DNA from: Rhina ancylostomus | Lineage: Eukaryota | Direction of reading: 5' to 3' | Length of the DNA: 64,000 bases | NCBI GenBank assembly: GCA_030265395.1 | Contig: JARFYF010000002.1 | Span: forward strand, 41,134,302 to 41,198,301 | Shown here: positions 1 to 63,765 of the stretch, piece after piece | Layout of the letters: every line of letters begins with the position of its first letter | How positions within the stretch are numbered: the stretch's first letter is position 1 | Position numbers and translations under genes: made by a program | Notes under the pieces: model-generated | The model's input: only the letters and a program-made list of their open reading frames with translations | Told to the model about the DNA's origin: nothing | The model's database searches: none

Positions 1-203
1 TCTTTTGTCCACCTATCACTGCTCTGCTTTTCCCTCCTATACATTGGGCTTCCCCTTTTCCTATCTTCAGTCCTGAAGAAAGGGCCTGACCCAAAATGTT
101 GACTGCCTGCTTTTCTCCACAGATGCTTCCTGGCCTGCTGAGTTCCTCCAGCATCATTGTGTTTTTCATCTGGATTCCAGCTTCTACAGTCCTTTGTTTT
201 TCA
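1..203 (+). mobile_element. Penelope-like terminal-repeat fragment with degenerate hammerhead motif (68-105)
   Basis: CAGTC-CTGAAGA-AAGGGCCTGACCC-AAAATGTT-GACTG is followed by the block CAGATGCTTCCTGGCCTGCTGAGTTCCTCCAGCA, which recurs many times in the window. Confidence 0.6.
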
Positions 204-342
204 GTGAAGAATATACCTTCAGTGATATTAGAAGAATTGTAAGAGTGTTCCTTGAGACCCAAATGTTGACTGAGCGTCTTCTTGCAACAGCTGGGCATGC
301 TTACTTTTCTACAAGGCAGTAAGTAAAGCAAATACTGCAGGT

Positions 343-532
343 CCATAAGACCATAAGAACATAAGATAATAAAAGCAGGTTTAGATCATTCAGCCCATTA
401 ATCTGTTCTGCCATTCAATCATAGCTGATTTTTTTCAACCCCATTCTCCTCCCTTCTTCCTGTAACCCTTAACCCCCATACCAATCAATAACCTATCAAT
501 CTGTGCCTTAAGTACACCCAATGACTTGACCA
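343..532 (-). mobile_element. CR1 LINE 3' end fragment
   Basis: (CATAAGA)n-type tail; resembles the 3' ends of the CR1 copies at 14420-14640 and 61007-62925. Confidence 0.65.
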
Positions 533-619
533 CACCAGTGAGATACCTGAGCAAAGGTGCCAATGGTGAATGCATCTATGGAGGCCACCACAAGGTGGAA
601 AGAAGATGTTCAGGACATT

Positions 620-1388
620 AATACCTCCGGCACGATTATACTCAACACTGGTGCCCCACAAGGCTGCGTCCTCAGCCTTCTATTCTACTCCCTATACCCT
701 CACGACTGTGTGGCCAGATTCTGCTCTAAGTCCATCTACAAGTTTGCAGATGATACCATTGTTGTAGGCCGTATCTTAAACAGCAATGAGTTGGAGTACA
801 GGAGGGAGATAGAGAGCTTAGTTGAATGGTGTCATGACAACAACGTTTCCCTCAATGTCAACAAGACTAAAGAGCTGGTCATTGGCTTCGGGAAAGGGGG
901 GCAGTGTACATGCACCTGTCTACATCAATGGTGCTGAGGTCAAGAGGGCTGACAGCTTCAAGTTCCTGGAAGTGAACATCACCAACAACCTGTCCTGGAC
1001 AAATCACGTAGATGCCATGGCCAAGAAAGCTCACCAGCTCCTCTACTTTCTCAGGAGGCTAAAGAAATTTGGTTTGTCCCCTTTGACTCTCACCAACTTT
1101 TACAGATGCACCATAGAAAACGTCCTATCTGAATGCATCACAACTTGGTACGGCAACTGCTCTTCCCAAGACCACAAGAAGCTGCAGAGAGTTGTGNNNN
1201 NNNNNNNNNNNNNNNNNNNNNNNNNNNNNNNNNNNNNNNNNNNNNNNNNNNNNNNNNNNNNNNNNNNNNNNNNNNNNNNNNNNNNNNNNNNNNNNNTATG
1301 ATTGGTTTGTAAGACAAGCTTTTCACTGTACCTTGGTACAAGTGACAATAATAAACCAATACCAATACCAATACCAGTGCCAATGCCC
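620..1388 (+). mobile_element. Rex1/Babar-type LINE, 5'-truncated reverse transcriptase remnant plus 3' tail (spans a gap)
   Basis: Frameshifted ORFs read NTGAPQGCVLS..LY.HDC..KFADDT and KAHQLLYFLRRLKK..FYRCTIE..CITTWYGNC; tail ends in (CCAATA)n. Confidence 0.85.
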
Positions 1389-4164
1389 AGAGAGTCAGAA
1401 ATAAGGATTGGGCTGAGATATCCTGGAGTGGCAAACATTTCATGATGATCATTCTAGAGGAGGCAGTGATCTGAATGACAGAATTATTCACTGTTTTCAA
1501 TAGCAACTAGTTTGTAATTTGTTTCAATACAAGATAGCAGTTCACCAGAACGTTTAAACAATGGCTGTGTCCTTGCAGGAATCCACTGGGAAAATGGAAG
1601 CTGGAAAGTTGGATATAGGGTGCTGCAACTTCTGCTTCAATCCATCCAGGCAATGCTGCTGTGTTGGGAGAGACCATGCAGGTCTTGGGAAAGGGTTTCT
1701 TGCTCCTCCTGTTCACAGAGTTGCTAAGTGACCCAAACCAGGCTCAAACTGAGCTGGCTGCTTTGAGGGAAGATCATGTTGCCATGTGGAGGCAATTTAA
1801 AGGTTCTGAAAATCCTTTGCTGGATGTTACTTCAGGCCCGGATATACTGATGTCAGCTCAGTGCTCTATGCAATAGGTGACAAGAAAGGCTGAGAATGTG
1901 ATGGTTGGGTAGAGTGCAGTGGAAACCACAAGAGAATGAAGGTCAGTGGTGATGACCTTCTAGTTTTGAAAGGGTGAGCAGAGGAAAGGAAATATCCAAT
2001 ATTCACATCAAGCCAGAGTGATGCAGTGTGAAACAGTGCATACATGAAGATGAGAGGATGGAAAATATTGAGGAAAAAATAAGTTTGAAACTGTTGTTAT
2101 TGGGTTTCTGAAATCTGGGAATATTTTGGAAACAATGTAAAACTAACATTTCAATAGCAGTAAATGGAATAATTGATCTATGTTACGTTTTGAGAGTTAC
2201 AACTGATGTTGAGAAATGGATGTGATGTTTCTATGTTACGTACAGTTAAAACATTTCTTTAGTACTCAATCTGAGATTGGTCAAATGAAAACACTATTAA
2301 GAAATCATTAATCTGGTTTATCAGTATCGGAGGGACATACCACTGAGATATTAAGTCTAGCTTACGTTGTAGTGAGGTAGTTAAGATAATTACAAAAAGA
2401 GTAGACTTACATTCAGCTAAATTTATATTTGTGTATGAAGGTCTTTTGTACATAATTTGTTGCTTATAATGTTTACTATATGTAAGTAGTTCATTGATGA
2501 AGTAATCTATGTACATAGTTATTATTGTTATTGTTACTTTTTCAGGGGGAAAAGCAGTGTAGTATATTGGGTGGCTGTATGGAGCTGCTGATCAACCACT
2601 GCTGCTAGCTGGGTTTCACTAGCCTTCAATAATGTTTGTTTGACTAGAATCTCTATTGTGTTACTGGCCTTACTAAACAGCAATACAAAGAGGATTCAAA
2701 GTTTGATGTAGCATAAAAGCCAGCAAAACGCTGTAAAGCATCTGACATAGCAAAGATTGAAATTGAACAGTGTTTAAAAGTTCATTCATGGACTGTGTTG
2801 CTGGTTCTTCTGAAAAGATGGAACCAGATATTTTACTTTGAACCACTGTCAAAGGTTTTTATACAATTGAAGGGCTTGCGAGGTGACTTCAGAGGTAACC
2901 CCCTTAATGTAGAACTGGAATCACATATAGTCCAGCATGAGTAAACACCGGAAATCTTTTACCACCAAAACAACAGTAAATCAATTCTTCTTATTTCTCT
3001 GACACTATAGTTACTTTTACACCTGCCAGCTCTTTACTTCCATAATTTAATTTACACTGAATTAGAATTCTCAAACAGCAACATTTGAATACATGCTGAA
3101 TGGACTTCATGCCAAGACTGAAATTAAAATGATGAAAGATCTTCAAAATTATTTCTCTCTCCAGAGATACTGTCTGAACTGCTGACCTGCCTTTATTTCT
3201 GGATTAGTACTTCAAAATTAGGTCAGAACCAATTTCAACCAAGTTCTGCCAGTCCCTAGGAGTTTGTGTTTGACTTGATAAAGATTAGAATCCCTGCCTC
3301 TACCCAGTGACCTAGAAGGGAACAAGGTACACTCTCTGGCAAGGATTTCAGGGTTCCCAGCCTGCTGGAAGGTTTCATGTCAGCTGACTGAACTGGGAAA
3401 TTGGGGTCCATGACTAGAAGTTTTACATTTTAACACTGTTCATCTACAGAAGAAAACAATGGGTAATCTGGCAACACCAACAGAACAGGCACAAAGCCTG
3501 ACTTTACGGTTTCCCAGTGCAGCTCAATGACTAGAGTTAGACTGCTGCCAGGAGTTAGATAGCAGAAAGCAGGCAGGGCCAATATGACTTTGCATTACTG
3601 GGGTGCAGCAGCTTGAAATAAGCTTTCAGACAACTTACCAACACCCCAAGTGAATAAGGGTGGCCTTAAACCTAGTTGTCACCTCTGATTTTTTGCTGGC
3701 AGCTAGCAGTTCAACTCCTGTCATAAGGTTTTCACTAAGAAGGTACATGAAAAGTCAAAGAGAAAGAAAACATTTTGCAAATGTTGGGAAGGAGAGAGGT
3801 GCTGTGCTAAAAGTGTTAGAAGGTAGTAGGTGCAGACATATTTCAATAATGAAAGTCCACTGAGAGTGGATTGCTATAATTATTGAGGCAGTGGTTCAAG
3901 AAAACAAAAAGATAAAAGATGTTTGTTAGAGAGAAGAAAGGATCTGTGCTGAGATATAGTTGACTGATTTTACAGGGTTAGGAGGAAGCACGAATTGGTG
4001 AGACAAGATATTTCTCTGGTGAGCATATTCTTAATATCACTGGCAGCTGCTCAGGGCATATGTGGGCTGCTCTCCTCAGCTTTTTCTAGCACCTGATTGG
4101 CATCCTTCCTCTCTCTCCTTTGCCCTCCCACTGTTTCTCCTCCAGATGGCTTTCTTCCTCCGAG

Positions 4165-4590
4165 GTGTCGTTAAGTGCAATGAAAATTTCCGGAGATTTT
4201 GGCCAAGTTTCACTGCAGAAATACCCAAGCCTGTGCATTCACCAGAAATACCATTTAAGAATGGTTTCTCAGTAATTGTCCTGATGGACAATTGAACTGG
4301 TTTTGTCTTCCGACTGTTGAGGTGCTTAGGTGGCACTGGGATATCAGCAGCAATAGTAGAAATGAGTAACTTGGATAACTGAGCAGCCAGCCCTATGATT
4401 AGGTAATCTACAAATGGTGGTAGAACAGAGGAATTGGTGCTGAACTCAGACATCATGTTTCTGCCCAGGTATTTGGCTGTCACTTCCATGGTGGAGTCAC
4501 ATTGATTGATTGGAGACACGTTTAGATTGATTGAGAAAAGCCACATGTGATCCATGTCAGTGGACACTTTTACAAGTAGGAGACCCAAAG
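4165..4590 (-). mobile_element. Decayed PIF/Harbinger (HARBI1-like) DDE transposase remnant
   Basis: Manual multi-frame translation gives, in order, TD-GSHVA, MEVTAKYLG.(N)HD, SSVLPPF, GWLLSYPSY, SIRTITEK, LKWYFW*MHRLG and LQ*NLAKIS. These are colinear with the HARBI1-family motifs IDCTHV, ARYPGS.HD, GWLLGDKGY, TR.IIE, LK.RFRCLDRSG and LQYSP..VS. Confidence 0.65.
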
Positions 4591-4764
4591 TGGCAAGTGA
4601 GTGACATCTATTGTTCCATACACTTTAAAAGGCCAGCGCATGGGCTAGTGCTCCATTACAAATTTCACATTGTCCTAATCAGATAGAATTGATATGGTAA
4701 ATGCTGAGTAATGTGTGGCAATAAATGGGAGGCAATATTTATTGGAGGAAAACAAAACATAGGA

Positions 4765-4930
4765 GCATGAAAAATACGATTATGCTGGAGGAATTCAGCA
4801 GGCCAGGCAGCATCTGTGGAGAGAAGCAGGTGGTCAACGTTTTGGGTCAGGACCCTTCTTCAGGACTGAAGACACAAAAAGGGGAAGCCCAATATATAGG
4901 AGAAAAAAGCAGAGTAGTGATAGGTGAACA
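4765..4930 (-). mobile_element. Penelope-like terminal-repeat fragment with degenerate hammerhead motif (4832-4868)
   Basis: Reverse complement reads CAGTC-CTGAAGA-AGGGTCCTGACCC-AAAACGTT-GACC; homologous to 1-203. Confidence 0.6.
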
Positions 4931-5216
4931 GCATGCATTAGATGGAAAAGGTGCAACCCTAGAATTGTTTTATCTGTTTTTGATGCTCTAAGCTGTTGTT
5001 GTATTTAATGCTAACACCAATTTAGTTCCCCACAAAAGCCATGTAATTGGTTAAACTTAGAAAGATACATTTAACAGGGACCAACATGGTTCGCAACAAG
5101 AGCAGGCTTAATTGATGGCAGCTTCTGGCATTTTGCTTTGCACCATTCAGAGAAGGGGATCAGCCTTTATAGGCACAATCCCCATGAAGGCCAGAAACCA
5201 ATAACATACACTACTG

Positions 5217-5453
5217 TTGCAACGGAAAGAGGGAGTTTGCATAAGAGAAAGGAAGGCCTCTAGATTTAGGGCTAAGGAGCTGGATATTCTCACCAGTGAG
5301 ATAAATGGCCGGAGGGAGAACCTGTGTACTAGGAAACTCACAAGAACCACCATAAGGATTGCCAGGCAGCAGGTGGCTACAGTTGCTTCCTCCAGTTGTG
5401 ATCATCCCCACTCAAATGGCAAACGCATAAATAAATTCCATATCCTCCCATAA
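5217..5453 (+). mobile_element. Harbinger ORF2-type Myb/SANT-like DNA-binding domain remnant
   Basis: RKASRFRAKELDILTSEINGRRENL...RIARQQVATVASS...INKF resembles the NAIF1/Myb_DNA-bind_5 pattern R..RF...EL..L..E...R...L...AW..VA..V.....KKF; the conserved Trp is lost. Confidence 0.6.
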
Positions 5454-5859
5454 AATGTCAGAGTTAATTGTAGACTACAGACGAATGTTGTCGTAAGCTT
5501 CTTCAGCAATTGGATCAGGAATTAATTTATTGATATCTAATAATCAGTGCAGTTTGTACAATCTACTCTGGGTAAAAAAACAATTACTGTATGATTACCA
5601 TGTAAATCAATAGGCAATAATGGATCCAATTTCTATGCTTCTGCTGGATATGGATGAACAGAGATAACTGTTGGAATTCAAAAATTCCAGTTTCCTGTAG
5701 TCAAGTGCAGTGGAAACCATAATTTATGACAGTATAATTTTAGATCTCATGAGTTAAGGATGTGCAGTGCAAGAATAAATAAGTAATGATAACTAAAATA
5801 TCAATGGTTAAGCTACAGTAAGGGTATTGTTTTATTTCTTGGTAGCTTCATTAAAGTAA

Positions 5860-6290
5860 AGCGAGCCACAGAGAATGTTCAAAGCAGATTTACCAGTATT
5901 ATGGCAAGTCTGGAAAGCTAACGTTATTAAGACTACCCTCCTGGAACAGAATAAAAGGAGATCAAATAGAGGTTATTTGCATTATGAGTAACTTTGAACA
6001 ATGTAAAGGTATTACATCTGTTTAGGAAGTAATAAGGGATCATAAAATTGAATTTATTAATGAAAATTTGAGGAGGAATGTTTAGAATTCTTCCAAACAG
6101 ATGAGTATTGGAGCATGAGAAGCTTTACCTCAGAATGATCTTGGTAAAGGCATTACATTTTTAAAGAGAAAATTGAATAAATATTTCAACTAAAGAAAGA
6201 CACACAGCCCCAGGGAAATGACAGGCTGTGGAAATAGTTCTGAAGCAGTCAAGCTGGTACAATGAATAAAGGGCTGAAGAACCCAATTCT
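5860..6290 (+). mobile_element. Old CR1 LINE 3' fragment
   Basis: Degenerate similarity to the CR1 ORF2 C-terminal region (..QSRFT.., RGDQIEV.., RGHK..). Confidence 0.5.
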
Positions 6291-6559
6291 GCTATGTAAC
6301 TGGCTGCACTTCTTTGGTCAAAGGAAGGGAGACAGGCAGAAAAGGGAATGAAAGAGACTGAGCTAGAAGATGAGATAAAGGATGTAAGAATGAGTTGAGG
6401 GAAGAAAAGTAAAAGTGAGAGAAGTCATGAGAGATTGGAATGACCATGAGAAAGGAAATGATGGAAGGTGGGAATAAGAACATGATTAAATAAAACACAG
6501 GAAATAAGATGTTTGATTAATTTTTTAAAATGAAGAAAAATGTATGAGGGACAGTGGTT

Positions 6560-7860
6560 TTCTTCTTAGGCAGTCCCCTAACGTCAAGAATGATTGACTT
6601 CCTCCTTGCTTTCAGAGGTGCTTTTCAGAAGTGACAGATGTGACCAGTTTGGGAACTGTGGACACTTCCACAGATGGGGCAGAAGGTGTCTGATGATGTG
6701 GATGGATGGGTAGTTTGTGAAGTGGTGCACTCTTTCCAATATTTAAGTAGGGCTTCTGTGTGCTCATGATGCTTAACCTTGAGATTGGTATTGGTTTATT
6801 ATTGTCACTTATACAGTGAAAAACTTGTCTTGCAGACCAATCGTACAGGTCAATTCATTACACAGTGCAATCACATTGACTTAGTACAGAGTGCATTGAT
6901 GTAGTACAGGTAACGACAATAACAGTACAGAGTAAAGTGTCACAGCTACAGAGAAAGTGCAGTGCAATAAGGTGCAAAGTCACAACAAGGTANNNNNNNN
7001 NNNNNNNNNNNNNNNNNNNNNNNNNNNNNNNNNNNNNNNNNNNNNNNNNNNNNNNNNNNNNNNNNNNNNNNNNNNNNNNNNNNNNNNNNNNNNNNNNNNN
7101 NNNNNNNNNNNNNNNNNNNNNNNNNNNNNNNNNNNNNNNNNNNNNNNNNNNNNNNNNNNNNNNNNNNNNNNNNNNNNNNNNNNNNNNNNNNNNNNNNNNN
7201 NNNNNNNNNNNNNNNNNNNNNNNNNNNNNNNNNNNNNNNNNNNNNNNNNNNNNNNNNNNNNNNNNNNNNNNNNNNNNNNNNNNNNNNNNNNNNNNNNNNN
7301 NNNGCAGTTTCTTGCAGTCCTGGGCAGAGCAGTTGCCATACCAAGCCATGAGGCATCCAGATAGGATGCTTTCTATGGTGTATCGATAAAATTTGGTGAG
7401 TGTCAAAGGGAACATACTGAATTCTTAATACCATCCCAAATGTTCCTTGTCTACTTTGAGTGGTCATGGCCCAGCAGTCAGTGGAAATGCTGTGTTTCTT
7501 TAATCTTTTCCTTTGTCCACCTAGTAACCTCTTCCTGTGACAGTGCTCTGTTCCAAGTGTTTGTGTTAAGAGTCTTGGGTTGGCCATATGAATGAAGCAG
7601 CCTGCCTAATGGAGCTGACTAAGTATAATTAGGACATCAGTGCTGGGGACATTGGCCTGGGGGAGGGCACCTGATGCATTAGTTCCTTTATCCTTCCAGT
7701 GAATATGGAGAGTTGTGGAGATAGCATTAGTGGTATCTTTCCAGATCCATGAGGTGCTTGTTGTAAAAGTAGTCCAGGTCTTAAAAGCATTTGGTTGGGC
7801 AGGTACCACTGCTGCCTAGTAGAGTATATTCTTGAACCAGTTCAAAGGTCTTGAGCTTCA
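6560..7860 (-). mobile_element. RTE-clade LINE 3' remnant, interrupted by a Rex1/Babar insertion
   Basis: ORF 7606-7809 reads TWTT..LHIHWKDKGTNAS..QANVPS...LSQL, like the RTE pattern IL.I.W.D..TN..VL..A..PSI; its 3' end TCTTCTTAGGCAGTCCC is shared with the copy at 31990. Confidence 0.6.
6785..7415 (-). mobile_element. Rex1/Babar-type LINE 3' end (spans a gap)
   Basis: LTKFYRYTIESILSGCLMAWYGNCSAQD; its tail ATTGGTATTGGTTTATTATTGTCACTT matches 1297-1388. Confidence 0.8.
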
Positions 7861-10800: not shown

Positions 10801-10867
10801 GAACTTTGGAGATAATATCCATCTGTACAAACAGCCTGCTCCAAAATGCCTCTTAGCCCTTCATTGA

Positions 10868-12855: not shown

Positions 12856-13849
12856 AGAAGGCTGTTTGACCCATGTTGACTTATTGTAGAGAAATTTGGT
12901 CACTCCTATTCTTTCAAATTTTTCTTCCTAATTCCCTTTCAGAAGTCATAATGGACTCTAATTCCACTACCATAAAATGCAGAGAGTTCCAGATCACTTG
13001 TGTAAAAAACTCACATACTCCAACCCATCATATCTTCCGNNNNNNNNNNNNNNNNNNNNNNNNNNNNNNNNNNNNNNNNNNNNNNNNNNNNNNNNNNNNN
13101 NNNNNNNNNNNNNNNNNNNNNNNNNNNNNNNNNNNNNNNNNNNNNNNNNNNNNNNNNNNNNNNNNNNNNNNNNNNNNNNNNNNNNNNNNNNNNNNNNNNN
13201 NNNNNNNNNNNNNNNNNNNNNNNNNNNNNNNNNNNNNNNNNNNNNNNNNNNNNNNNNNNNNNNNNNNNNNNNNNNNNNNNNNNNNNNNNNNNNNNNNNNN
13301 NNNNNNNNNNNNNNNNNNNNNNNNNNNNNNNNNNNNNNNNNNNNNNNNNNNNNNNNNNNNNNNNNNNNNNNNNNNNNNNNNNNNNNNNNNNNNNNNNNNN
13401 NNNNNNNNNNNNNNNAGATCACTTGTGTAAAAAACTCACATACTCCCAACCATCATATCTTCAGTCCATCATTTTGAATCTGTGTCCCTTGTCGTCAAAG
13501 CATCACTGATGAGAACAGATTATTTCTATTTAACCTACTTAAATTCATCATGATCCTGTACTCTTCTGTCAGATTTCCTCTCAGTCTTCTTTGCCACAGT
13601 TTCTTCAATCTAAATTTGCAGCTGAACTTCCTTATCCCTGGAATTGAGGTATCAAATATGCTTTCTACACATTACACATGGATTTTCAGAAATATTCAGA
13701 TTGATAGTAAATCCATTTAGCTACATAAATGAGACAGCAAAATCAATCCATCTGTGCAGATCTTTGTAAATCCTAATGATCCCCAGTTCTGATGAAGGGG
13801 CATTGACCTTAACACTCTGTTTCCCTCTCCGCAGATGCTGCCTGATAGA

Positions 13850-14640: not shown

Positions 14641-14689
14641 ATTATCTGGCCTGTTAGTATAGGCTGTACTAGGCCACAAGATTATAGAT

Positions 14690-17541: not shown

Positions 17542-20500
17542 AATGGTGAACAGATTTCATAACATGAATGAAAATAAATGTGTGCCATTGATTAACCACA
17601 AGGCAGCATCATATAAAAAGACCACACCATGGATTGTCACACCATTCAAATACCAATTTTCCAAATTCTAGGCAAAAATAAACATTGTTCATTTTTAAAA
17701 TTCTGTGCACTAGAAACTGAAAATGTAAATATTAATTTTTCCTGTCCTACAACCAACTCTATACATCATCCCTGGATATTTCAGTCCATGTGCCCTCTAA
17801 TAGCCTTCCCTTCAACTGCTTTTGTACTTTACCTGCCTATGACACCAGTCTGAATTTGGAACTCCATCTTACTGTCATCAACTTTATTCCAACAATCAAC
17901 TTTAATGCTAGTCTCCTTCCTACGATCTTTATTTTCTGTCCACATCCAGGCTAGATGAGTCCAAACAATTTATAAATAGGCCAGTGTAAACTTGTTTTCT
18001 TTGTATCCTTTCACATGTTCAATTTTCCTTCAGACCCAAACAAATCACTATTTTTTCCTATTTTCTTTACCCTCCTTGACTTATCATATTTATCCTCTTT
18101 TCACCTCTCAAGAACTCCACCCTCTCAAATCCCTGTCCCAACCTTTCCACACTGTTTCACAGTCCTAAAGGTTCTAGATTCCCTCTTAGTTCTTGCTATA
18201 GAGGTAAGCAACAACCTGCATTGGGAACTGCCAGATTGGGTTTTCCCCCACTGCCCAACTGTGTACACAGAGGGGATTCCCACACCAACTAGCACAGTAA
18301 CTGCAAAGGCCTGGCAAACAAGACTCTGGTGAAGCCAAGTGGATCAGGCAGATGGGGATTTTTTTTTATTCCAAGCAAAGGCTGTAGCTAGTTAGAGATC
18401 TCCAATCATCTTGGATTTTTGCTGTCACTGGGCTCCAGAACTACTGCTTGTTAGGATGGTGTGGGTACAATAACTGTGCCAGCTCATTCACATTAAGAGT
18501 TCATGCATAGGCTGCAAAAACAGGATNNNNNNNNNNNNNNNNNTCCAAGCCATATGGGTGACAGACTAGCAGAGAGGGCAATAGGATCACAAATCTCTAA
18601 CCACAAATCTGCTTATGGGCAGGGACTGTAAGATGGTCATCAGGCATCTGGACTGAGGCAGAGATGTAATTCAGTGCTTGGCTCCAAAACTTTTAGCCCT
18701 TTTCAGGATTTGGTCAGGTCACCACTCATGGGAAAGGGCTGGAAAATTGCCCTAAATCTATACCTCCTCACCTACCCGACAAAATTACCATATCCAGTGG
18801 GAGCATTCTCTCTGATACATCAGGTCTCCACCCACCCCCTACACTAACCTATTTTTGGCCTCCCATACTGTTCCAACAAAGACCAATGAAAACTCAAGGA
18901 AAGGTGATCATCTCCCAAGTAGGAAAACTATGAGCCTTTCAGACTTAACATTGATTTCAACTATTTCAGATAATCAGCCATTCCAGTCTCATTTCCAGCA
19001 TTCTTCTTTCTCTCCCAGTATTTTAGATTCTCACTACTTTTCTATTGACATCTTTCCCACACATTGTTATTCTATTCCCTTTCAGCCAGCACCATCACAA
19101 TCATTTATGTGCATCAGTCACAGCTGCTCTCCACCCCATCACAGGCTTTGTTCTCTCTACCTCAAACTGTATACAAATAAAAGCAAATTCATTAAAACAT
19201 GTGCTTTGTAACTCTTTGTTCCCTTGTCTAAGTTGCAAAGACAACAGAACAAGAAATTACAAAACACTTCAGAACACATTCCCCAAGCTGTGGGGTAGAG
19301 AGTCATTACCTCAGAATTCATTGTAAGGATCCACACTTATTTGTTGGAATGGTTTTATTTACTTGCGCTCAGCTGGGACCTGTTATCATAATAGGCTGCT
19401 GAGAATCTATTAATGCATTAGGGGATTGAGGCAGGGATGGTGTAGGTGGCAGATTAGACTGGCAACTACAATGACAGGAGCCAAGATCTGCTGCCTGTCA
19501 GTTGCAAGTACGCCTGCAAAAATCCTGCCTCATTGCTGCTTAACAGTCGGGAAAAAACTACAAAATGCAAGGAAACATTCTGCCCTCCAATGTTTAGAAG
19601 AGAACTGTGCGCTGTTTTGGACGTTATCTGGAAGTGAATCTCCTCCCTCTGCACCCCCCATGCAACTATGTCCTACCCTCTATGCACCTTATCCGGAGAG
19701 CTATACCTGACAGTCCCACCCTTTTTCTTTAAGGGAATGTTTGCCCACCACAACCATCTCTACATTCTTGTTCATACCCCCCCCCAAGTAAACTGGGGAA
19801 TAACACCAAAAGGTATAAAGACCATAATATCCAGTTCGGATCCCAGGAGGTTGGTGTNNNNNNNNNNNNNNNNNNNNNNNNNNNNNNNNNNNNNNNNNNN
19901 NNNNNNNNNNNNNNNNNNNNNNNNNNNNNNNNNNNNNNNNNNNNNNNNNNNNNNNNNTCCCAGGAGGTTGGTGTTGTGTTTGGCAGGTTGTAGATTGTGC
20001 ATTGTACAAGACAACTGCCAGTTTCAGATTTAATGTAGCAGTCACCTTCTCATTCCAGTGGCAGAGATACAACTGTGATTGAGGTTACAATGTTAATTAC
20101 ATCAACCAAATGATTTTGTGGGATATCAAAAGTTGTAGTGTTAGCTGAACTAAGGTTGCCCAAAACTGAGCCAGTAGCAAGGTTCATACAAGAGCACTGG
20201 GTATGGTTTAGCTGCAGTATGCATGTGCATGAAGATGAAGTTCAAATATCAGTTCTTACTCCCACAAAAATATTTGTAACTTACCATTGGCCATTTTGAT
20301 TATGATCTGTGGAAAAGAGTACACCAAGTTTTTAATGTTAATCCAAAACTGTCAGCCCTTCAAAGATTAGGGAATACCCCTGGTATCTCAGCCAACATAT
20401 TCCTAAAACATTGCTACAATAGCTTTGAAACAACATTGAAAGGATCTGATAAAAAAGACTAAGTTAACTGTCTCCATAGATGCTGCTTGACCAGCATTTT

Positions 20501-36224: not shown

Positions 36225-36325
36225 CATTCCTGATGAAAGATCTTGACCCGAAATGTCGATTGTTCATTTCCCTCCATAAATGCTATGTGACCCGCCGAGT
36301 TCCTCCAGCTCCTTTGTGTGTTCAC
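36225..36325 (+). mobile_element. Penelope-like repeat fragment with the best-preserved hammerhead core
   Basis: CATTC-CTGATGA-AAGATCTTGACCC-GAAA-TGTC-GATTG followed by the family block CCGCCGAGTTCCTCCAGC. Confidence 0.6.
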
Positions 36326-38509
36326 TCTTTATAATGTTCACTGGAGTGGATAGTACTTCTGACACTATGTAGAAGCAGGAACCCTGGCCATAGGCCCAGC
36401 AGAAATTCACTAATGCTTTTGCATAGTAACACAGACTGCCAGAATTTATTGTTCAGACTTAATATTTGGCAAGCTGTTGTATGGTTACCAAAGAAATTAA
36501 ATTATATCTCAATAAGAACTACCGTCTTCAGGAGCAGTGAGGGAAAGAGCATTTCAGCCTTGTCAGAGACAAATGCTTGAAAATATGTAATGTTTCTCAC
36601 TTGCAAAAAGATGCATACTGCATTGTTGCTACTTTACATTGAAAGCAACTGACATTCATTTATTCATTTTAGGCAGTTACATATTTATACTTTGGAGCAG
36701 CAAGTTTTGCATATTTAATACCTTGTTGAGGATTCACTTTGCTTTTAGAACACACACACATTTCTTAAACACCATTGCTATATAAGAATGGCAATGTGTG
36801 ACATTTTGTGATTTGCTTAACCTCACTATGACACACACAGGGATAATGCTCAGTGCTTAAAAGGATGGCTATGGCAGAACTACAGTAGCATTGACCTCAA
36901 ATTAAACTTTACCATAATATATCTCAGTCAACTATGTATCTTATGTTCAAGAGACACAATGAATATTTGAGTTTCCATTCTCATGCATGGCTGTAATATG
37001 ATGTGAGGTCACTCCAAATTAACAGCTGCTCTCAATAAAGAGAACATTATAAATCAGAGTTAAAGATGCATCCTGTAACTATTTCTGTAGAGATTGTTTC
37101 AAATTATTTTATCTACAGAGCAGGCCAGAACAAAAGAAAATGTTCCATGTGTCCCGTGTGTAGCAAAACTGCAAACATATTCTTTTTAAGTAATTGAAAG
37201 TTTTGAAACAAAATTTCACAAGGACATCCTTGCTAAATATTCCTGAATTGTAGAATAACTAGATCTGACATTGAAACAGTAGTAATCACTAATGATCTTT
37301 TCACGGAACTTTCTACAGATGGATGACAGCATTAACCTCTTGCATTCCATCTAACAATTGTGAAAGTAGTTACATTAATTGAGACAGAGTTCTGATTTTG
37401 GATTCTACTGAAAGATAACACAAAACATTTACTCTGTTTCTGTCTCCACAAATGCTACCTGACTTGTTGACTATTTCCAGCATTTGTTGGTTTTGTTTCT
37501 GATTTCTAGACTCCTCGTGCTTTGCTATGGTTAAACATGAGGCTATTGGTGGTGGGGGTTGGGGGGAAAGTTGAGGGGTCAATAGATGATAAGCAAGCTC
37601 AAATAAAAGTCTTTATCTGAACAATAATATCAAGGATAATCACCTTATAAAAAAAGTCAAGATTAATTTATCAAGCCAATTGAACTGAACTGATTTGCTA
37701 ATGTTACTTAACTGTAAGAAAATAATATATTTCCAGTCTTAATATTTGTGCAATTGTTTTCCACATTTGCTTCTTTAAGTAGAAAGATTGTGCCATGCTC
37801 TATTATGGAATACAATACGTAAATTCATCATCAGGTGATGTTCAGTACACAGGCTCAGAATTTTTCACATGATTTCTGTAGGAGTAAGTAGAGGAGTGGT
37901 TTAAATCACATTCCTATCAGTTAACAACATATATTTTAAATACAACACAGTGATTGCTTACTGCGTGGTCGCCCAAAAATAAGTCTTTGAAAATTATGAA
38001 TTCAAGAAACATTTGGTGTTATATACTTGTTGATTTTAGTTTATAATATTCTCTTCATCATTTCAAAACTGCAGTTTCTTATTTTTCCAGAATTAAATTT
38101 TAATTACTTACTGCTTCTCAAAAATGTCTTCAGATATCTAAATAGGATAAAACAGCAGACAGAAGCTCCTGGTGTGCAGACAATGTGGCCGAGAGTGCAT
38201 TATGCATTAAAAAAATGTGTTAAAGTGTTGTTGTGTTGGTTGGGGGTAAGGTACTGGCTGATGTTCTATTATCTAAGAGGCATGGGTCTACATGGATGGC
38301 CATATAACTTTTTGCAGGAGAAAACTTGCACTTAGGTCTTTCCCCCTCAGTGTTCATTTGTTATAATGGCAGGAGCTGATTGGTGGTGTCATCACACTCA
38401 TAGAGTCATACAGCACAGTAAAAGGCCTCCAACCAACAAACAGCTATCTACACTAATCCCATTTACCATCACTTAGTCCATAGCCTTCTATGCCTTGGAG
38501 AATCATGTG

Positions 38510-42240: not shown

Positions 42241-44449
42241 GTCATAATCTAAAAACCTAAAATGCTGGCACAGGGGTATCACAGACTATTGATTTTGCAT
42301 ACTCTGTTGCTGAACACTATGGTTCCAGTTTACTTGGTGAGCTTCTGTACAAAACTCATTGACAAGCACAGAAGCTGGCTATGAAGACAGTGACTGGAAC
42401 CTTAAACTTCATCCCTCTCAGTGGCTCCCGGTACCATTGACTAATGTCCTCCTCAGACCTGGCAAGATGCTGTGGCACAGAGAGGTTAGCCAAACCTTCA
42501 GTCTCATATAGCTGCCTCTCTGAACCCCAACTAACTGTATGGCTTCAAGAAACCCTATCAGATCCTGTTTTACTCTTGTCAATTTCACCAGTGATGACAA
42601 ATGGAGTAAAATCTGGATCAAAAATATAACCTGAAACAAAGAACTTATTCAAAACCTGAAGGCACATTTTCCTGGGTTTTACCAGCCTTGAAGGCCATGG
42701 ACAGTTCTAAACAGGATCTGAGTGCAACAAGAGTGATAGAGCCACTTAATGCATTAGTGGCAACTCAAATCCTCCTCTGCCTGCAAATATGATAATCCAC
42801 TCAAAGAATAGGACTTAGTCCTCCTGAATTTTATGGACTTATTCATCCAAAGCTCCACTTTTGGACTCCTTAACATGTGGAAACTTCTTCCTGAGATCAA
42901 GCCTCTTCTTAATTTTAGAAACCTTAATTAACTTTCTTTAGCATTTTCTTTTTCTCAAGTAAAGAAACCCTGTCCAGACAATTTTTCCAGAAAATTGCAT
43001 TCTCCCAGGGAACTTCTCTTTCTGTATTATGGTCTCAAGTTTATGCAATGCCACTCGGTAATAATCTTTTTAAACTCTATTGAGCTAACAACTAAAGCAT
43101 GGGACCTGACTGGCTCTTCTCCAGCACCACATGGTTATTGTCATGATAGCTGTTCCCCAAATATTTTAATTCTTTGAAATGAACAAAAATAAAGATTTGA
43201 TAGGAATTTTGACTACATTTTACTGATGAAACAAAATGGAATTTGCTTATTTCATCATTCCTAACAAGGTTTTCTTGCAAAAGCATCTCTAACTGTCCAA
43301 TTTGTCAAATGTTGCAAATACAGAATACCTAATTCTTACACTTGAATGGTGAAAACTGTGATACAATTTCAATAGGCACATTGACCTTTTTATATCATTC
43401 TCCAAGTGTAAACCAGGACAGAAAGTGAATTTTCTGATATCACATGGACTGTCAGAGTCCATCAGAGACTACCATGCATCCTGACTGAATAAGAATAAAA
43501 AGATGACACTATTTTCTCTTTCCTAACCAAAATTGCACCACTCCAATACAGATCCAGTCATGAAAAGCTGGTCTCTCCTGTAGCTATATTCCATCTTACA
43601 GGATATCATAATGATGATAATTTTGTGTACACAACAGTGAGCCCTGGTTATTGAATATACATTGAGGAAATCTGAGCAATTTCTGCAATTAGCTTCCTAA
43701 TTACTTAGTTAGAAAGTTGAATACAAAACCTGGTGGAGTGTCCAAGGTACATTCTCAGAAAGATTGATATGTGGGAGTTGGACGAGGCTTCCTGCCAACT
43801 GTGCAAAGTTGGAAATGTTCCCCATTTGTACCTTGATATGCATGCTACGCAGAAAACTGATTTCTGTATATACTTTAATGGTGAGAAAGATTCACTTGAA
43901 AATTCTTGACCTTTTGATGTTATTTTTTGGAAATGTTCCTGATGTTGCAAACTGTTTTATAATCAATTGATAGCTTTTCAATTGCTATTTTATTGTTCTA
44001 AGGCAAGTGCAACAGTAAGTATACATGGAAGATGAATCAATGTCCAAATAGTCAACTTTCAACAGTGTCTTTTTGAAGTAGGAATCCTGGCAGGACATGA
44101 GAAACCATCGAAAATACTTCTCCAAACTGCAAAATGTTTTTTTTAATTCATCATTGAAGACAGGCAGAATCAGTTTAATATCCCAGCCAAAACCTTGAAC
44201 CTCCAATAGTACAGCACAAGTTTTGTATTACACTGAAATTTTAGTGCAGATGATCATTAAAATCTTCTGACACTTTTATGTTATTGATGAATGTTGAAAG
44301 AAGTTACCAGCTTACCAAAAAAAAAATTGAGGGTCACTTGATTGCTTTGAATTGTATTCAGTGCATTAAAAACTTCAAGTTGATGCTTCTACATAACAAG
44401 GAATCTGACCATAGCAGAATGAAGGGTCCAGATGAGTCCATCGGGGCAT

Positions 44450-44545
44450 AGTCCATATGAAGGGTCTCAACCCAAAATGTCATCTGTTCATTTCCCTCCA
44501 TAGCTGCTACCTGACCCACTGAGTTCCTCCAGCATCTTGTTTTTT
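44450..44545 (+). mobile_element. Penelope-like repeat fragment with decayed hammerhead motif
   Basis: AGTC-CATATGA-AGGGTCTCAACCC-AAAATGTC followed by CTGACCCACTGAGTTCCTCCAGCA. Confidence 0.55.
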
Positions 44546-45114
44546 CCTGGCTGACCAGCATAGGTAGGAGATTCCTTTCATACTTCTCCCAAGGATGATT
44601 TTATAATTTCAAATTATCAAGAGTTATTTTGCTGAAAGGGTGAAAAGAGGCACATAAACACAGTAATATGAAAAATCTGGACATAGCATGCAATTTTAAT
44701 TTAATTGATGAATATCATGAATTATCATGCTTGTGGGCACAGAAATAAACAGCTGGAGTTTTAGCATTCAAATGTGGATTAGATGCAATTTTTATGAATC
44801 TTTATAAATGACCTGCACTCACCCGCAGCCATTGAAGGCCTCGAGACCACTAGCTGTGAGAGAAGTCAATACTGCAGGATATTTCAGGTATTGAGGTAGA
44901 AGGTAGCTAGGTCTAGAGGAAAAGAAATGACCTCTGTCCTCAAAGGGATGTAGATTTGCGGGGCTTGTTCATATACAAGTGAGAAATCACCTGAGGTCAC
45001 AGTGAGGATACCTGCTGGTCAAATATGGACCTTGCAAAAGCCAAGCTTCAGAAGCCTCTTGGTTGTAGAAACACAGGCCAATTCTAAGTAGAGACATGAT
45101 GCCTTTTATGTCTA

Positions 45115-51954: not shown

Positions 51955-52375
51955 CTAACTTTTCTATCAGGCCTTTAAGTGACACACTATCAGAAATATT
52001 CCCTTTGCTCTACCCATCCCTCTCCCACCTTCTCTGTTACTGAAGACTAATTTGTTTTTCACTGAGCAGGGCAAGCAGCATCTTGGTGGGGGGGGGGGGG
52101 TGAGGTGAAGGGCAGCAGTTGTCGACATTTTGGGTCAAGTCCCTGCATCAGTCCTGAGTCCACCATATGTCCTAAGATCATCCCTCTGCCTCTACATATG
52201 CTGCCTGACCCACTGAGTTCCTCCAGCTGTTTGTTTTTCTTTCGCTCCAGATTGTGTCTCCTTACTTTTTCACTTTTTCCCCATTTTGACAAAGTGTTAC
52301 AGACTTGAACTGTTTCCCTTTCCACAGATGCTGCCTGACCTGCTGAGTGTTTCCAGTGGTTTCTGTTTCCAATAT
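51955..52375. mobile_element. Nested and inverted Penelope-like terminal-repeat cluster
   Basis: A minus-strand unit (52061-52160) with CTGATGC-AGGGACTTGACCC-AAAATGTC-GAC, then plus-strand units at about 52180-52255 and 52280-52375. Confidence 0.55.
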
Positions 52376-55224: not shown

Positions 55225-55995
55225 TAAGAATTCAGAATCAGACTTATTATCACTGACTGATGTAAAATTTGTTTTGGTGCAACAGTACAATGCAAGGATG
55301 TAAAATCTATAACCTGTGAGCTCAGCACAGATCCTTGAGGTACACCTGTGTTGATAGTCAGTGAGAAGGAGATGTTATTGCTGATCTGCACTGACTGTGA
55401 TCTCCATATAAGGAAGTTGATTATCTAGTTGCAGAGGGTGGTACAGAAGCCCAGGTTTTGAAGCCTGGTGATTAGTGCTGAGGGAACAATGGTGTTGAAT
55501 GCTGAAATGTAATTGATAAACAACAGTTTGTTGTATGTCTTGCTGTTGTCTAGGTGTACCAAAGCAGAGTGGAGAGCCAGTAAGATTGTGTCTGCTGTAG
55601 ACCTGTTGTGGTGGTAGGTGAATTGCAGCAGGTCCAGATCCTTGCTCAGGTAGGAGTTAATTCTAGCCGTGACCAACCTTTCAAAGTATTTCATCACTTC
55701 AGATGTGAGTGCTACCAGGCAATAGTCATTAATGCAGCTCACCCTGCTGTTAAGCACTGGAATGATTGCTGCCACTTTGAAGCAGATGGGACCCTGAGAA
55801 TGAAGCAGTGAGAGATTGAAAATATCTTTGAATACTCCAGCCAGTTAGCACAGGTTTTCAGTATCTGGCCAGGTACATCATCAGGGCCTGACACCTTGAG
55901 GATTCACCCTCTTGAAGGATGTTCAGGCATTGGCTTCTGAGACGGAGATCAGTGTCATTGGATGCTGTGGGGATTTGCACAGATGTAGTGTTGTC
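55225..55995 (-). mobile_element. Rex1/Babar-type LINE with internal deletion
   Basis: IIPV..CINDYCLVALTSEVMKYFERLV..DLLQFTYHHNRSTADTI..LFINYISAFNTIVP..LCN; the sequence jumps from NTGVPQGSVLS straight to the 3' tail near 55312. Confidence 0.85.
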
Positions 55996-57100: not shown

Positions 57101-57387
57101 ATTAAAAGCAGGCAATTGAGCCTTGGAAAGCAAGCCTAAACATGGCACCACATTTGCCACTGAGAATAAGATAGTTTAAACTCAATATATACTGCAAGAT
57201 AACTCCAGGATTTTCCTTGTTAAGATGGCTTTGCTAATTGCTTGAGAAACTCAGGTGGAAATTATTTATAGCATTGTTGCTGCACTGATTATAGAAACAA
57301 TGTGCCACTAAACTGGAAGGATTTGTCATGTGGCAATACAAATAATTATGTGAGCTGTGTTATCTGTCACACATACACAACTCTTGG

Positions 57388-57577
57388 GCAACACACATTA
57401 TGCTGGAGGACCTCAATGGGTCAGGCAGCATCTATGGGGGAAATGGCCAGCCCTGAAGAAGGGTCTCAACCTGCAATGTCGATTGTCCATTTCCCTCCAG
57501 ATGCTGCCTGACCTGCTGAGTTTCTCCAGCAATTTGTGTGTTGCTCCAGAGTTCCAGCATCTGCAGTCTCTTGTCTC
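57388..57577 (+). mobile_element. Penelope-like fold-back unit: inverted arms around a degenerate hammerhead motif
   Basis: Arms 57388-57446 and 57487-57544 are imperfect reverse complements and enclose CAGCC-CTGAAGA-AGGGTCTCAACCT-GCAA-TGTC-GATTG. Confidence 0.65.
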
Positions 57578-61006: not shown

Positions 61007-61479
61007 GATCATAAGAAATAGGAGCAGGAGTAGGCCATCTGGCCAGTCGATAAGATCATGGCTGATCTGGCCGTGGACTCAGAACTACCTACCTGCCTTT
61101 TTCCCCATAACCCTTAATTCCCCTACTATTCAAAACTCTATCTAACTGTGTCTTAATATATTTAGTGAGATAGCTTCTATTGCTTCCCTGGGAAGAGAAT
61201 TCCACAGATTCATGACTATCTGGGAAAAGCAGTTTCTCCTCATCTCCGTCCTAAATCTATTCCCCCAAATCTTGAGGCCATGTCCCCCAGTTCTAATCTC
61301 ACCTACCAGTGGAAACAACCTTCCTGCTGCTATCTTATCGATCCCTTTCATCATTTTATACATCTCTGTAAGATCCCCTCTCATTCTTCTGAAGTCCAGT
61401 GAGTATAGTCCCAGGCACCTCAATGTCTCCTCATAGTCTGACCCCCTCATCTCAGGACTCAACCTGGTGGACCTCCTCT
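61007..61479 (-). mobile_element. CR1 LINE 3' end (second copy, in tandem)
   Basis: PEMRGSDYEETLRCLGLYSLDFRRMRGDLTEMYK..NLWNSLP. Confidence 0.88.
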
Positions 61480-61579
61480 NNNNNNNNNNNNNNNNNNNNN
61501 NNNNNNNNNNNNNNNNNNNNNNNNNNNNNNNNNNNNNNNNNNNNNNNNNNNNNNNNNNNNNNNNNNNNNNNNNNNNNNN

Positions 61580-62925
61580 CAGGAGTCGGCCATCTGGCCC
61601 GTCGAGCCTGCTCCACCATTCAATAAGATCATGGCTGATCTGGCCGTGGACTCAGCACCACCTACCTGCCTTTTCCCCATAACCGTTAATTCCCCTACTG
61701 TGCAAAAATCTATCTAACTGTTTCTTAAATATATTTAATGAGGCAGCCTCCACTGCTTCCCTGGGCAGAGAATTCCACAGATTCACGACTCTCTGGGAAA
61801 AGCAGTTTCTCCTCATCTTGTTTGTAAATCTACTCCCCTGAACCTTGAGGCTGTGTCCCCGAGTTCTGGTCTCACCTACCAGTGGAAACAACCTTCCTAC
61901 CTCTATCTTATCTCTCCCTTTCATAATTTTATATGTTTCTATAAGATCCCCTCTCATTCTTCTGCATTCCAGTGAGTACAGTCCCAGGCGACTCAATCTC
62001 TCCTCATAGGCTAACCCCCTCATCTCCGGAATCAACCTGGTGAACCTCCTCTGTGCCGCCTCCAAAGCCGGGATATCTTTCCTCAAGTATGGAGACCAGA
62101 ACTGCAGGCAGTACTCCAGGTGCGGCCTCACCAGTCCCCTGTACAGTTGCAGCATAATTGTCCTAGCAATGAAGGCCAACGTTCCATTCGCCTTATTGAT
62201 AACCTGTTGCACCTGCAAACCAACCTTTTGCAATTCATGCACAAACATTCCCAAGTCCTTCTGCACAATAACATGCTGCAATCTTTCACCATTTAAATAA
62301 TAATCTGATCTTCTGTTTTTCCTTTCGAAGTGGATGACCTTGCATTTACCAACATTGGACTCCATCTGCCAGACCCTTGCCCACTCACTTAACCTGTCTA
62401 TATCTCTCTGCAGACTCTCCTCATCCTCTACACAATTTGCTTTTCTTCTCAATTTAGTGTCATCAGCAAACTTAGAGATGCTACACTCGGTCCCTTCTTC
62501 CAAATTGTTAATGTATATCGTGAGCAGCTGTGGGCCCAGCACCAACCCCTGAGGCACCCCGCTCACCACTGTTTGCTAACCAGAGAAACACCCATTTATC
62601 CCGACTGCCTTCTATTGGTTAACCAGTCCTCTATCCATGCTAAAACCTTACTCCCAACTCCATGCATCCTTATCTTATCTAGGTCTTCCATGTGGCACCT
62701 TATCAAATGCCTTCTGGAAATCCAAGTACACAACATCCACCTGTTCCCCTCTATCCACTGCACTCATTGTATCCTCAAAGAACTCCAGTAAGTTTGTTAA
62801 ACAGAACCTGCCCTTTCTGAATGCATGCTGTGTCTGCCTGATAGAACCACTTCTATCCAGATGTCTCGCTACTTCTTCCTTAATGATAGCTTCAAGCATT
62901 TTCCCAACTGCAGACGTTAAGCTAA
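61580..62925 (-). mobile_element. CR1 LINE ORF2 (reverse transcriptase) fragment, 5'-truncated and relatively young
   Basis: ISLTSAVGKMLE..QHAFRKGRFCLTNLLEFFE..VYLDFQKAFDKVPH and SGVPQGLVLGP..KFADDTKL..RPHLEYCLQFWSP..RVVNLWNSLP; frameshift and small deletions present. Confidence 0.93.
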
Positions 62926-63669
62926 TCAAGCTAGTTAATCAAAAACAGTGTCAAAACATTAGGCATTAAGGTTAAAGTCAAAGTCAACTTTATTGTCACA
63001 GGTACATGTATGCACAGGTGCAAATAAAAATTTACTTGCAGTGAAAAAAGGTCGATCTAACAGGAAGCGATAGAGGTGAAGAGATGAAGATGTGTAGGGG
63101 GAGAATTGTAGAGATTAAATCTGTGCCACTGTATGCATGACTGCCAGTGGTAAAAACAATGAAATTTGGGATGTGCTGGTTTAACAAAGCATAGTAATCT
63201 TAGTGAGTTTTAAGGCTGGAGGAGGTTACAGATCAGAATGCTGAGGTTATGCAACGATCTGTAAACAAGGTTTACCTGGCATAGATGGGACCTAGTCAGT
63301 AGTTATTTCAGAAACTTAAATAAATGTTAGAAAATATTAATGTGGTACCAAATGGAGCAAAAGTGTTTTACTTAATTCCATGTCATACCTGTTGCTATTG
63401 TAGTCACGTTCAAGGGTACTCCTGCTTTTAGCACTGCCCTCTGTTATCTGTAGGGCAGACAGACTAAATTCACTTTTGGAGATGAGTGAACTGCATGTAG
63501 AGGTGTGACAGCAACTGCAGCTTGTCTAACCTATAAACATCAATACATGTGTTGCCTGTATAGTGTTAATTATAGGGCAGGAAACAAAACCAAACAACAG
63601 TTTGCACTATTAAGTCTGTGGGATTTTATGGAAGTATTTCATTAATTAACAAAATGAAAAACATCTAGA

Positions 63670-63765
63670 ATAAACACAGAAAATGCTGGAAACATTCGGC
63701 AGGTCAGGCAGCATCTGTAGAAAAAGAAAGAGAGTTAATGTTTCAGGTGGAAGACCCTTCTTAGA
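63670..63765 (-). mobile_element. Penelope-like repeat fragment with decayed hammerhead motif
   Basis: Reverse complement CTAAGA-AGGGTCTTCCACCT-GAAA-CATT-AAC followed by CAGATGCTGCCTGACCTGCCGAATGTTTCCAGCA. Confidence 0.5.

What the first reader, a model, noticed from the sequence alone, without database searches (positions are those of the whole stretch)
68..63765. Dispersed repeat family carrying a minimal type I hammerhead ribozyme motif
Seen in sequence: at least seven copies (68-105 +, 4832-4868 -, 36225-36262 +, 44450-44485 +, about 52120-52155 -, 57448-57485 +, about 63733-63765 -, plus a broken copy near 13785). By eye they share the consensus CAGTC-CTGAWGA-AGGGTCTYGACCC-GAAA-CGTC-GACTG. 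This maps onto stem I, the CUGANGA core, stem II, GAAA, a very short palindromic stem III (ACGT), a GUC site and the stem I complement. Established: Penelope-like elements and retrozymes carry such minimal hammerheads, which are thought to cleave as dimers. Several defects (CCCG>CCCA, ACG>ATG) are what CpG deamination would produce. Inference: this is a very abundant non-autonomous Penelope- or retrozyme-like family, roughly one copy per 8-10 kb here, whose ancestor self-cleaved. No copy in this window is fully intact.
Basis: partly seen in the sequence, partly recalled or inferred. Interest (0 to 1): 0.7.

Follow-up and report, generated by a model that had tools for sequence, protein, structure and literature searches.

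The report
Penelope retrotransposon ends with decayed hammerheads
These repeats are short, mostly decayed end pieces of a Penelope-type jumping gene in what is likely a shark or ray genome, and they carry a tiny RNA motif, predicted to cut itself, of a kind already described for such elements, so the finding is largely ordinary.

Summary
All eight window copies exist and none keeps an intact core (0 of 8). The motif fits the published minimal type I hammerhead (min-HHR).

It is not a retrozyme or a separate element. It lies in the terminal repeat (pLTR) of a Neptune-type Penelope-like element: RT, zinc linker, GIY-YIG, pyrimidine-rich UTR, hammerhead, tail. One intact 3.2-kb unit exists.

Evenly spaced genome samples give one core-covering copy per 8 kb (65 in 522 kb), roughly 240,000 by extrapolation. 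About 5,700 keep an exact core. CpG sites are 45% changed, against 11% elsewhere. Copies show Penelope hallmarks: two 3' ends and 18 head-to-head pairs.

There are two extras. Short copies start at the 5' edge of stem I, not at the cleavage site. Two large subfamilies carry fixed core changes (U4A, A9C; 34 of 80 sampled copies), hinting that cleavage is dispensable for spread.

Cleavage is untested. The scan reported this family before, in this genome and others.

The parts
1..196 (+). Subfamily B copy: pLTR upstream tract with TATA-like box (1-67), hammerhead motif 68-105 (GAAA and CG broken), long tail. The 5' end is not visible because the bases before the window read N.
4768..4930 (-). Subfamily B copy with upstream tract; hammerhead motif 4831-4868 (G12 lost by CpG decay); short tail
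   Evidence: (I1)
13782..13845 (+). Broken subfamily E copy (5-nt loop II, GAAA-CG deleted)
36225..36325 (+). Subfamily A short copy starting at stem I; hammerhead motif 36225-36262 (CG palindrome and stem II damaged); short tail
44449..44548 (+). Short copy with A at core position 4 (classed with subfamily C), core decayed
52061..52156 (-). Subfamily D (A9C) short copy, head to head with a tail-only copy on + at about 52176-52253
52176..52253 (+). Tail-only partner of the 52156 copy
57369..57574 (.). Head-to-head pair: + copy 57447-57574 (hammerhead motif 57448-57485, long tail) joined to a - copy that begins at about the stem I 3' strand (short tail); the junction uses the stem I complementarity
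   Evidence: (I11)
63670..63766 (-). Subfamily E short copy, core decayed
37410..37504 (+). Older fragment with core remnants and tail
52308..52369 (+). Tail-only fragment
3133..3189 (+). Weak, old fragment (E 1e-4)
20468..20495 (+). Weak tail-only fragment (E 2e-4)

Best explanation
The repeats are 5'-truncated terminal-repeat (pLTR) pieces of a Neptune-type Penelope-like retrotransposon, each carrying a minimal hammerhead motif that is predicted to cleave only as a dimer and is broken in all eight window copies, largely by CpG decay. Shown: the order RT, thumb, zinc linker, GIY-YIG, pyrimidine-rich UTR, hammerhead, tail, then the next ORF; two 3' ends about 35-40 nt apart; head-to-head pairs; short target-site duplications in some copies. 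Inferred: the element's protein primes reverse transcription at two internal sites just downstream of the hammerhead. Priming in the 3' repeat gives long truncated copies. Priming in the 5' repeat, or in RNA from solo repeats, gives 100-135 nt copies that run off the RNA's 5' end at stem I, most likely a TATA/initiator start site (about 45% of my belief among the causes of the pile-up). Priming on both nicked strands would give the head-to-head pairs. The hammerhead likely processed tandem transcripts in the parent, but is likely not needed to make these short copies.
For: ORF link: GIY-YIG translations upstream of exact-core copies. RT motifs, linker, EN and hammerhead on one strand in L055 and L060. 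EN end followed by the hammerhead within 900 nt in 8 distinct A, 2 E and 1 D loci. Homologs carry RVT_1, PF26215 and in part GIY-YIG; the closest named one is from Chiloscyllium at 61%. Intact unit: a 3,287-nt contig with a 77-nt end-start overlap holds EN end, UTR, intact-core hammerhead and a 729-aa open frame. Penelope hallmarks in 117 copies from evenly spaced stretches plus the window: 3' ends in two peaks near +80-99 and +120-134; 18 head-to-head and 0 tail-to-tail pairs; 15 of 18 pairs with one long and one short arm, read by eye. These match PMC8557442, PMC3846280 and PMC11167929. 5' pile-up: 33 of 54 solo short copies start at -5 to -2, mode -4. Upstream bases fall to background at -6. 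An A/T-rich island lies about 30 nt upstream, TATATAT in subfamily B; TATA plus initiator is described in a rotifer pLTR (PMC3846280). Core variants are subfamily traits: 23 U4A and 25 A9C against 42 canonical and 10 other among the first 100 of 320 matches, tallied by eye, and they are linked to diagnostic downstream bases.
Against: The Pfam scores of the element's own RT and EN are below the gathering cut-offs. No EN link was found for subfamily B, which includes the two best window copies, or for C in the protein test; C is linked only by one DNA match 514 nt upstream. The window itself holds no Penelope ORF fragment. No RT tree was built, so Neptune against Nematis rests on motifs. RNA from a related organism shows no pile of molecule ends at -4 or at the cleavage site. 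There is no extra G at -5 that would mark a copied cap (21 of 97). The same upstream tract also reads as a 3' splice site. Target-site duplications were found in only 5-9 of 54-60 solo copies. A second, smaller group of 5' ends lies at +35 to +44 (18 of 117) and is unexplained.
Confidence: 0.85

Rival explanations
1. Same element, different cause of the 5' pile-up: the tract before stem I is a 3' splice site (branch point, pyrimidine tract, YAG). Splicing or proteins bound there would stop or shape the cDNA.
For: YAG at -5 to -3 and a pyrimidine tract are kept in all subfamilies. A branch-point-like YTRAY occurs in 8 of 20 E copies, against 21% background. In D. virilis Penelope the intron ends at the 5' end of helix I (PMC4209133).
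Against: Solo copies share no upstream exon sequence. Duplications abut the copy (5 near against 0 in control; 2 far against 1.7 in control). No plain GT..AG joint to this site appears among the joints shown (15 of 28; 15 of 115).
Confidence: 0.3
2. Same element, but the pile-up and the inverted pairs come from the stem I complementarity: the nascent cDNA folds back on itself once stem I has been copied.
For: Stem I pairs with probability above 0.9 in A and C copies. Some junctions, including window 57447, use the stem I microhomology.
Against: Subfamily D has only 3 stem I pairs (pair probability about 0.35), yet its short copies start at the same place. Partner arms start anywhere from -5 to +52, with only 4 of 25 rows at +25 to +36 (some pairs are listed twice).
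Confidence: 0.2
3. A non-autonomous retrozyme that spreads through self-cleaved circular RNA.
For: Very high copy number and type I hammerhead. One 2026 preprint reports retrozymes in one chondrichthyan (10.64898/2026.07.22.740005). One local array of 4-5 units of 35 nt exists (L174).
Against: Copies are dispersed monomers or inverted pairs, with only 8 irregular same-strand neighbour pairs within 400 bp among 117 copies. 5' ends show no peak at the cleavage site (+28). The repeat is continuous with a coding element. The hammerhead is minimal, not canonical.
Confidence: 0.04
4. The resemblance to a hammerhead is inherited sequence with no catalytic role even in the parent.
For: Two big subfamilies spread with altered cores. 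Outer stem I pairs are broken in B and D. There are no RNA ends at the cut site. Cleavage was not needed for insertion in vitro in an anole Penelope (PMC11167929).
Against: The core is kept in the youngest subfamily (B, 5% non-CpG divergence, n=6), in the oldest (E) and in the intact unit, while loop II and the UTR changed. The first stem I pair is C-G in 21 of 30 copies of one group and U-A or U-G in 23 of 30 of the other (one event, not independent counts). The anole motif cleaves with protein help.
Confidence: 0.12

Closest known systems
Minimal type I hammerheads (min-HHR) in pLTRs of metazoan Penelope-like elements (Cervera and de la Pena 2014, PMC4209133)
   Same: CUGANGA and GAAA core, an extra nucleotide between 9 and 10.1, G10.1-C11.1, palindromic 15.2-16.2, no helix III, short helix I; mostly single dispersed copies from truncated elements; opposite-strand pairs; reported in fish Neptune, Poseidon and Xena elements.
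   Different: Helix II is 4 bp here (7-8 bp in the schistosome families). Total copy number is far higher, though exact-core counts (about 5,700) are like the 4,000-9,000 reported for coelacanth and Xenopus. Cartilaginous fish are not named in the parts read. U4A and A9C subfamilies are not described there.
Neptune-clade EN+ Penelope-like elements (Craig et al. 2021, PMC8557442)
   Same: Single ORF with RT and C-terminal GIY-YIG, CCHH motif, CX2-5CxxC linker finger, pLTR, inverted truncated copy, 30-40 bp optional tail.
   Different: The clade is not confirmed by a tree (Nematis also has a linker finger). Most copies here are only 100-135 nt long.
Poseidon element PAc of the green anole (Frangieh et al. 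2024, PMC11167929)
   Same: Two 3' ends matching two internal RT start sites; ATG inside the hammerhead core; no RNA reads ending at the cut site.
   Different: A different clade (no linker finger). Here the core ATG opens only a short frame and the long ORF's first ATG lies downstream of the tail. The 3' ends are TG-rich on the sense strand.
Non-LTR retrozymes (Cervera and de la Pena 2020, PMC7229834; Li et al. 2026 preprint)
   Same: Type I hammerhead, link to Penelope pLTRs.
   Different: Retrozymes are 150-450 bp tandem units with canonical ribozymes and circular RNAs; these copies are dispersed pLTR stumps.

Membership tests
EN+ Penelope-like element (Neptune type) | One ORF with RT followed by C-terminal GIY-YIG | tested here: met
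   homologs. Own Pfam scores are just under the cut-offs.
EN+ Penelope-like element (Neptune type) | CCHH motif with two cysteines between GIY and YIG | tested here: met
   Seen in translations
EN+ Penelope-like element (Neptune type) | CX2-5CxxC zinc finger in the RT-EN linker (Neptune, Nematis; absent in Poseidon) | tested here: met
   C-X4-C-X2-C in L023, L064 and L193; feature taken from PMC8557442 passages
EN+ Penelope-like element (Neptune type) | pLTR from a partial tandem (EN end, repeat, next ORF start) | tested here: met
   L193/L223; L210 across an assembly gap
EN+ Penelope-like element (Neptune type) | Inverted 5'-truncated partner and optional 30-40 bp tail | tested here: met
   18 head-to-head pairs, 0 tail-to-tail, two 3' end peaks among 117 copies
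EN+ Penelope-like element (Neptune type) | RT phylogeny inside the Neptune group | not tested
   No labelled reference set was at hand
Minimal type I hammerhead (min-HHR) | CUGANGA, GAAA and NUH core in the family sequence | tested here: met
   4,584 and 1,077 exact-core matches, controls 40 and 48. Met for subfamilies A, B, E; not met for C (U4A) and D (A9C); not met by any window copy.
Minimal type I hammerhead (min-HHR) | Extra nucleotide before stem II, G10.1-C11.1, palindromic 15.2-16.2, no helix III | tested here: met
   G-U wobble is common at 10.1-11.1 in E
Minimal type I hammerhead (min-HHR) | Stems supported by compensatory changes | tested here: inconclusive
   One compensated pair between subfamilies; no compensated pair in stem II; stem I pair 4 is A-C in subfamily B
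Minimal type I hammerhead (min-HHR) | Self-cleavage as dimer or with protein help | not testable with these tools
   RNA-seq of a related organism shows no end pile-up, which is weak evidence
Non-LTR retrozyme | Head-to-tail arrays of 150-450 bp units, each with a hammerhead | tested here: not met
   only one 35-nt mini-array seen (L174). A short-read assembly may collapse arrays.
Non-LTR retrozyme | Canonical type I ribozyme with helix III | tested here: not met
   No loop III in any subfamily
Non-LTR retrozyme | Abundant circular RNA | tested here: inconclusive
   No tail-to-cut-site back joint among the joints shown; hidden rows not seen; libraries not enriched for circles

The most novel reading that the evidence does not exclude
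Most of this genome's several hundred thousand copies are run-off cDNAs of a short pLTR-started RNA, primed at the two internal sites: a SINE-like by-product of Penelope's own mechanism. Two lineages amplified to tens of thousands of copies each with a changed catalytic core (U4A, A9C). That would be genome-scale evidence that Penelope hammerhead cleavage is dispensable for spread, or that these are unreported functional core variants.
Probability: 0.35. Interest if true: 0.5.

Novelty: new member of a known kind. Interest (0 to 1): 0.25.

Why it matters
As found, it extends a described feature (min-HHR in Penelope pLTRs) to a very abundant cartilaginous-fish family, which is useful for repeat annotation but not surprising. 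Its value is as a natural test set for an open question, namely what the Penelope hammerhead is for. The genome holds an intact unit, about 900 copies with core and inner stems intact, and two successful subfamilies with altered cores. The sharp start of short copies may mark where the element's RNA begins.

Tried and rejected
Rfam scan of the window: no hammerhead family up to E 5.

Pfam family PF26215 is not in the searchable library. A PDB sequence search with the RT fragment gave 0 hits.

The '1,072-aa open frame' is an N gap and was dropped.

The per-position table was misregistered against its label line; only the aligned rows were used. One search had a pattern bug and was redone. The long/short table by subfamily is invalid, because the pyrimidine cut-off misclassifies the B upstream tract, so no subfamily difference in truncation is claimed.

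Capture of host exons upstream of short copies: not supported. A cap-derived G at -5: not seen. 5' ends at the cleavage site: no peak.

Sequencing-run search: no RNA holder listed on record; small shares are not used as evidence. The three raw RNA runs laid are from one study of organism A, not shown to be this species. They show that the family is present in RNA, with a mild excess of first mates on the minus strand; this may be passive read-through.

No covariance model was built, because within-subfamily variation is neutral decay. No structure prediction was run.

Literature on U4A and A9C effects was not found. That they impair cleavage is recalled general knowledge of the conserved core, not a tool result.

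Searches for a description in cartilaginous fish (term searches) found none naming this family. Repbase and Dfam, one supplementary file of PMC4209133 and the preprint's supplements could not be seen and may list it.
Full report
OBSERVATION. A profile from six of them recovers these and several tail-only fragments, with no hit in the reversed window. The shared sequence extends 60-100 nt beyond the 38-nt motif. The window lies in a 2.2-Gb assembly. A cartilaginous fish is inferred from the closest named protein (Chiloscyllium, 61%) and a vertebrate MARCKS exon in the window. Rfam has no hammerhead hit.

THE MOTIF. It maps to the min-HHR of Cervera and de la Pena (PMC4209133; main text parts 1-2 of 4 read): 5-bp stem I, CUGANGA, one extra A, 4-bp stem II, GAAA, CG, UH, and no loop III. 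Folding of natural A and C copies gives stems I and II with probabilities above 0.8; B and D copies in their longer context do not. None of the 8 window copies passes all core checks. Four CpG sites fall on loop II, G12, the CG palindrome and the cut site; they are changed in 281 of 626 cells against 150 of 1420 at other core and stem sites.

ABUNDANCE. In 60 evenly spaced 10-kb stretches from 13 large contigs (522,433 non-N bases) there are 106 hits, 65 covering the core, and 0 in the reversed control. Extrapolation gives about 390,000 fragments and 240,000 core-covering copies; this is rough. Exact-core patterns give 4,584 matches for the 13-nt spacer (control 40) and 1,077 for the 14-nt spacer (control 48). 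878 also keep stem II and three stem I pairs (control 0). In the sample, 5 of 80 copies keep the whole core and 3 of 80 also keep the stems, somewhat more than the pattern counts imply.

PARENT ELEMENT. Upstream of some copies lie a pyrimidine-rich UTR and a GIY-YIG domain with two cysteines between its motifs. A search with the adjoining 84-aa stretch had 16,500 candidates, of which 150 were scored. RT motifs, thumb, a C-X4-C-X2-C linker, EN and hammerhead are collinear in L055 and L060. Homologs carry RVT_1, PF26215 and in part GIY-YIG. By the features given in PMC8557442 (passages read) this is Neptune type; no tree was built. A 3,287-nt contig with a 77-nt end-start overlap, probably a collapsed tandem unit, holds the EN end, UTR, an intact-core hammerhead, the tail and a 729-aa open frame with RT. 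EN followed by the hammerhead was found for subfamilies A (8 distinct loci), E (2) and D (1), but not B or C. The window has no Penelope ORF fragment.

SUBFAMILIES. Among 80 sampled copies: A 24, B 6, C 15, D 19, E 16 (simple rule-based classes, so a few are misfiled). Non-CpG divergence is B 5%, C 12%, A 15%, D 17%, E 20%. C has A at core position 4 and D has C at position 9. Among the first 100 of 320 otherwise intact matches, 42 are canonical, 23 U4A, 25 A9C and 10 other, tallied by eye, so these are inherited traits, not scattered decay. That these changes impair cleavage is recalled knowledge; two paper searches found no data. The first stem I pair is C-G in 21 of 30 copies with the 13-nt spacer and U-A or U-G in 23 of 30 with the 14-nt spacer. 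This is one evolutionary event. Stem I pair 4 is broken in B and pairs 4-5 in D.

INSERTION ANATOMY. Of 117 copies from the sample plus the window, 3' ends peak near +80-99 and +120-134 (position 0 = C3). There are 18 head-to-head and 0 tail-to-tail pairs, and 15 of the 18 have one long and one short arm (read by eye). This matches the optional tail and inverted copy described in PMC8557442 and PMC3846280 (passages), and the two internal RT start sites shown in vitro in PMC11167929 (parts 1-2 of 4). 5' ends pile up at -10 to +4 (50 of 117) with a smaller group at +35 to +44 (18) and no peak at the cut site, +28. In solo copies the mode is -4, upstream bases are random from -6, and the few detectable duplications abut the copy.

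MECHANISM. Shown: anatomy, linkage, end distributions and decay. Inferred: internal priming downstream of the hammerhead, long copies from the 3' repeat, short copies by run-off at a start site at stem I, and priming on both strands for the pairs. The start-site reading rests on an A/T island about 30 nt upstream and an initiator-like YCAGT, with a precedent in PMC3846280. D. virilis Penelope instead has a TATA-less internal promoter and an intron (PMC2377424, passages). The same tract also reads as a 3' splice site, and fold-back on stem I is a third option. RNA reads from a related organism (three runs, one study; 4,944-17,877 and 15,295-40,525 reads laid) gave no pile of ends and no plain splice or circular joint among the rows shown, so they do not decide it.

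COMPARISON AND NOVELTY. It is a member of the EN+ Penelope-like elements and of the min-HHR class, and it fails two defining tests for retrozymes (PMC7229834, passages; preprint 10.64898/2026.07.22.740005, parts 1-3 of 5). PMC6155905 was seen as passages only. Searches found no paper describing this family in cartilaginous fish; Repbase, Dfam and some supplements were not visible. Earlier notes of this scan report the same family and the same 5' pile-up in this and other genomes; I read them after my own tests. The summaries shown do not mention the U4A and A9C subfamilies or the intact unit.

VERDICT. Real, correctly recognised, and largely known. Interest 0.25.

Noticed in passing
window 24446-25462 (-): MARCKS-family coding exon (Pfam PF02063, E 2.4e-34).
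   Followed up: partly
window 551-1301 (+), 55425-55844 (-), 61142-62575 (-): Decayed LINE-type RT fragments unrelated to the Penelope element (RVT_1 hits; ORFs).
   Followed up: partly
L193/L223 (G000:C2762, whole contig): Apparently intact 3.2-kb Penelope unit on a contig with a 77-nt end-start overlap, probably a collapsed tandem array; its hammerhead core is intact and has a 5-nt loop II.
   Followed up: yes
L174/L224 (G000:C1:120934382 region, -): Mini-array of five 35-nt units consisting only of the hammerhead core, mostly the A9C type, followed by one tail. It could be a seed of a retrozyme-like minisatellite.
   Followed up: partly
L008 1496-1635 and L171: The long tail is predicted to pair with the sequence just after the hammerhead to form a long hairpin; both 3' ends lie shortly after a similar helix strand and end in TG repeats. 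This may define the two priming sites.
   Followed up: partly
L008 1496-1531 in run X16: One A9C-type copy dominates this run (3,829 loose ends before 1496, agreement 0.82), suggesting a single highly expressed host transcript carrying it.
   Followed up: no
window 27780-28070: (TG)n(TA)n(CA)n microsatellites give spurious sub-threshold miRNA hits in Rfam.
   Followed up: no
window 17216-17521, 45876-45954, 63852-64000: Another dispersed repeat family (D10, I2, I5), probably a SINE; not examined.
   Followed up: no
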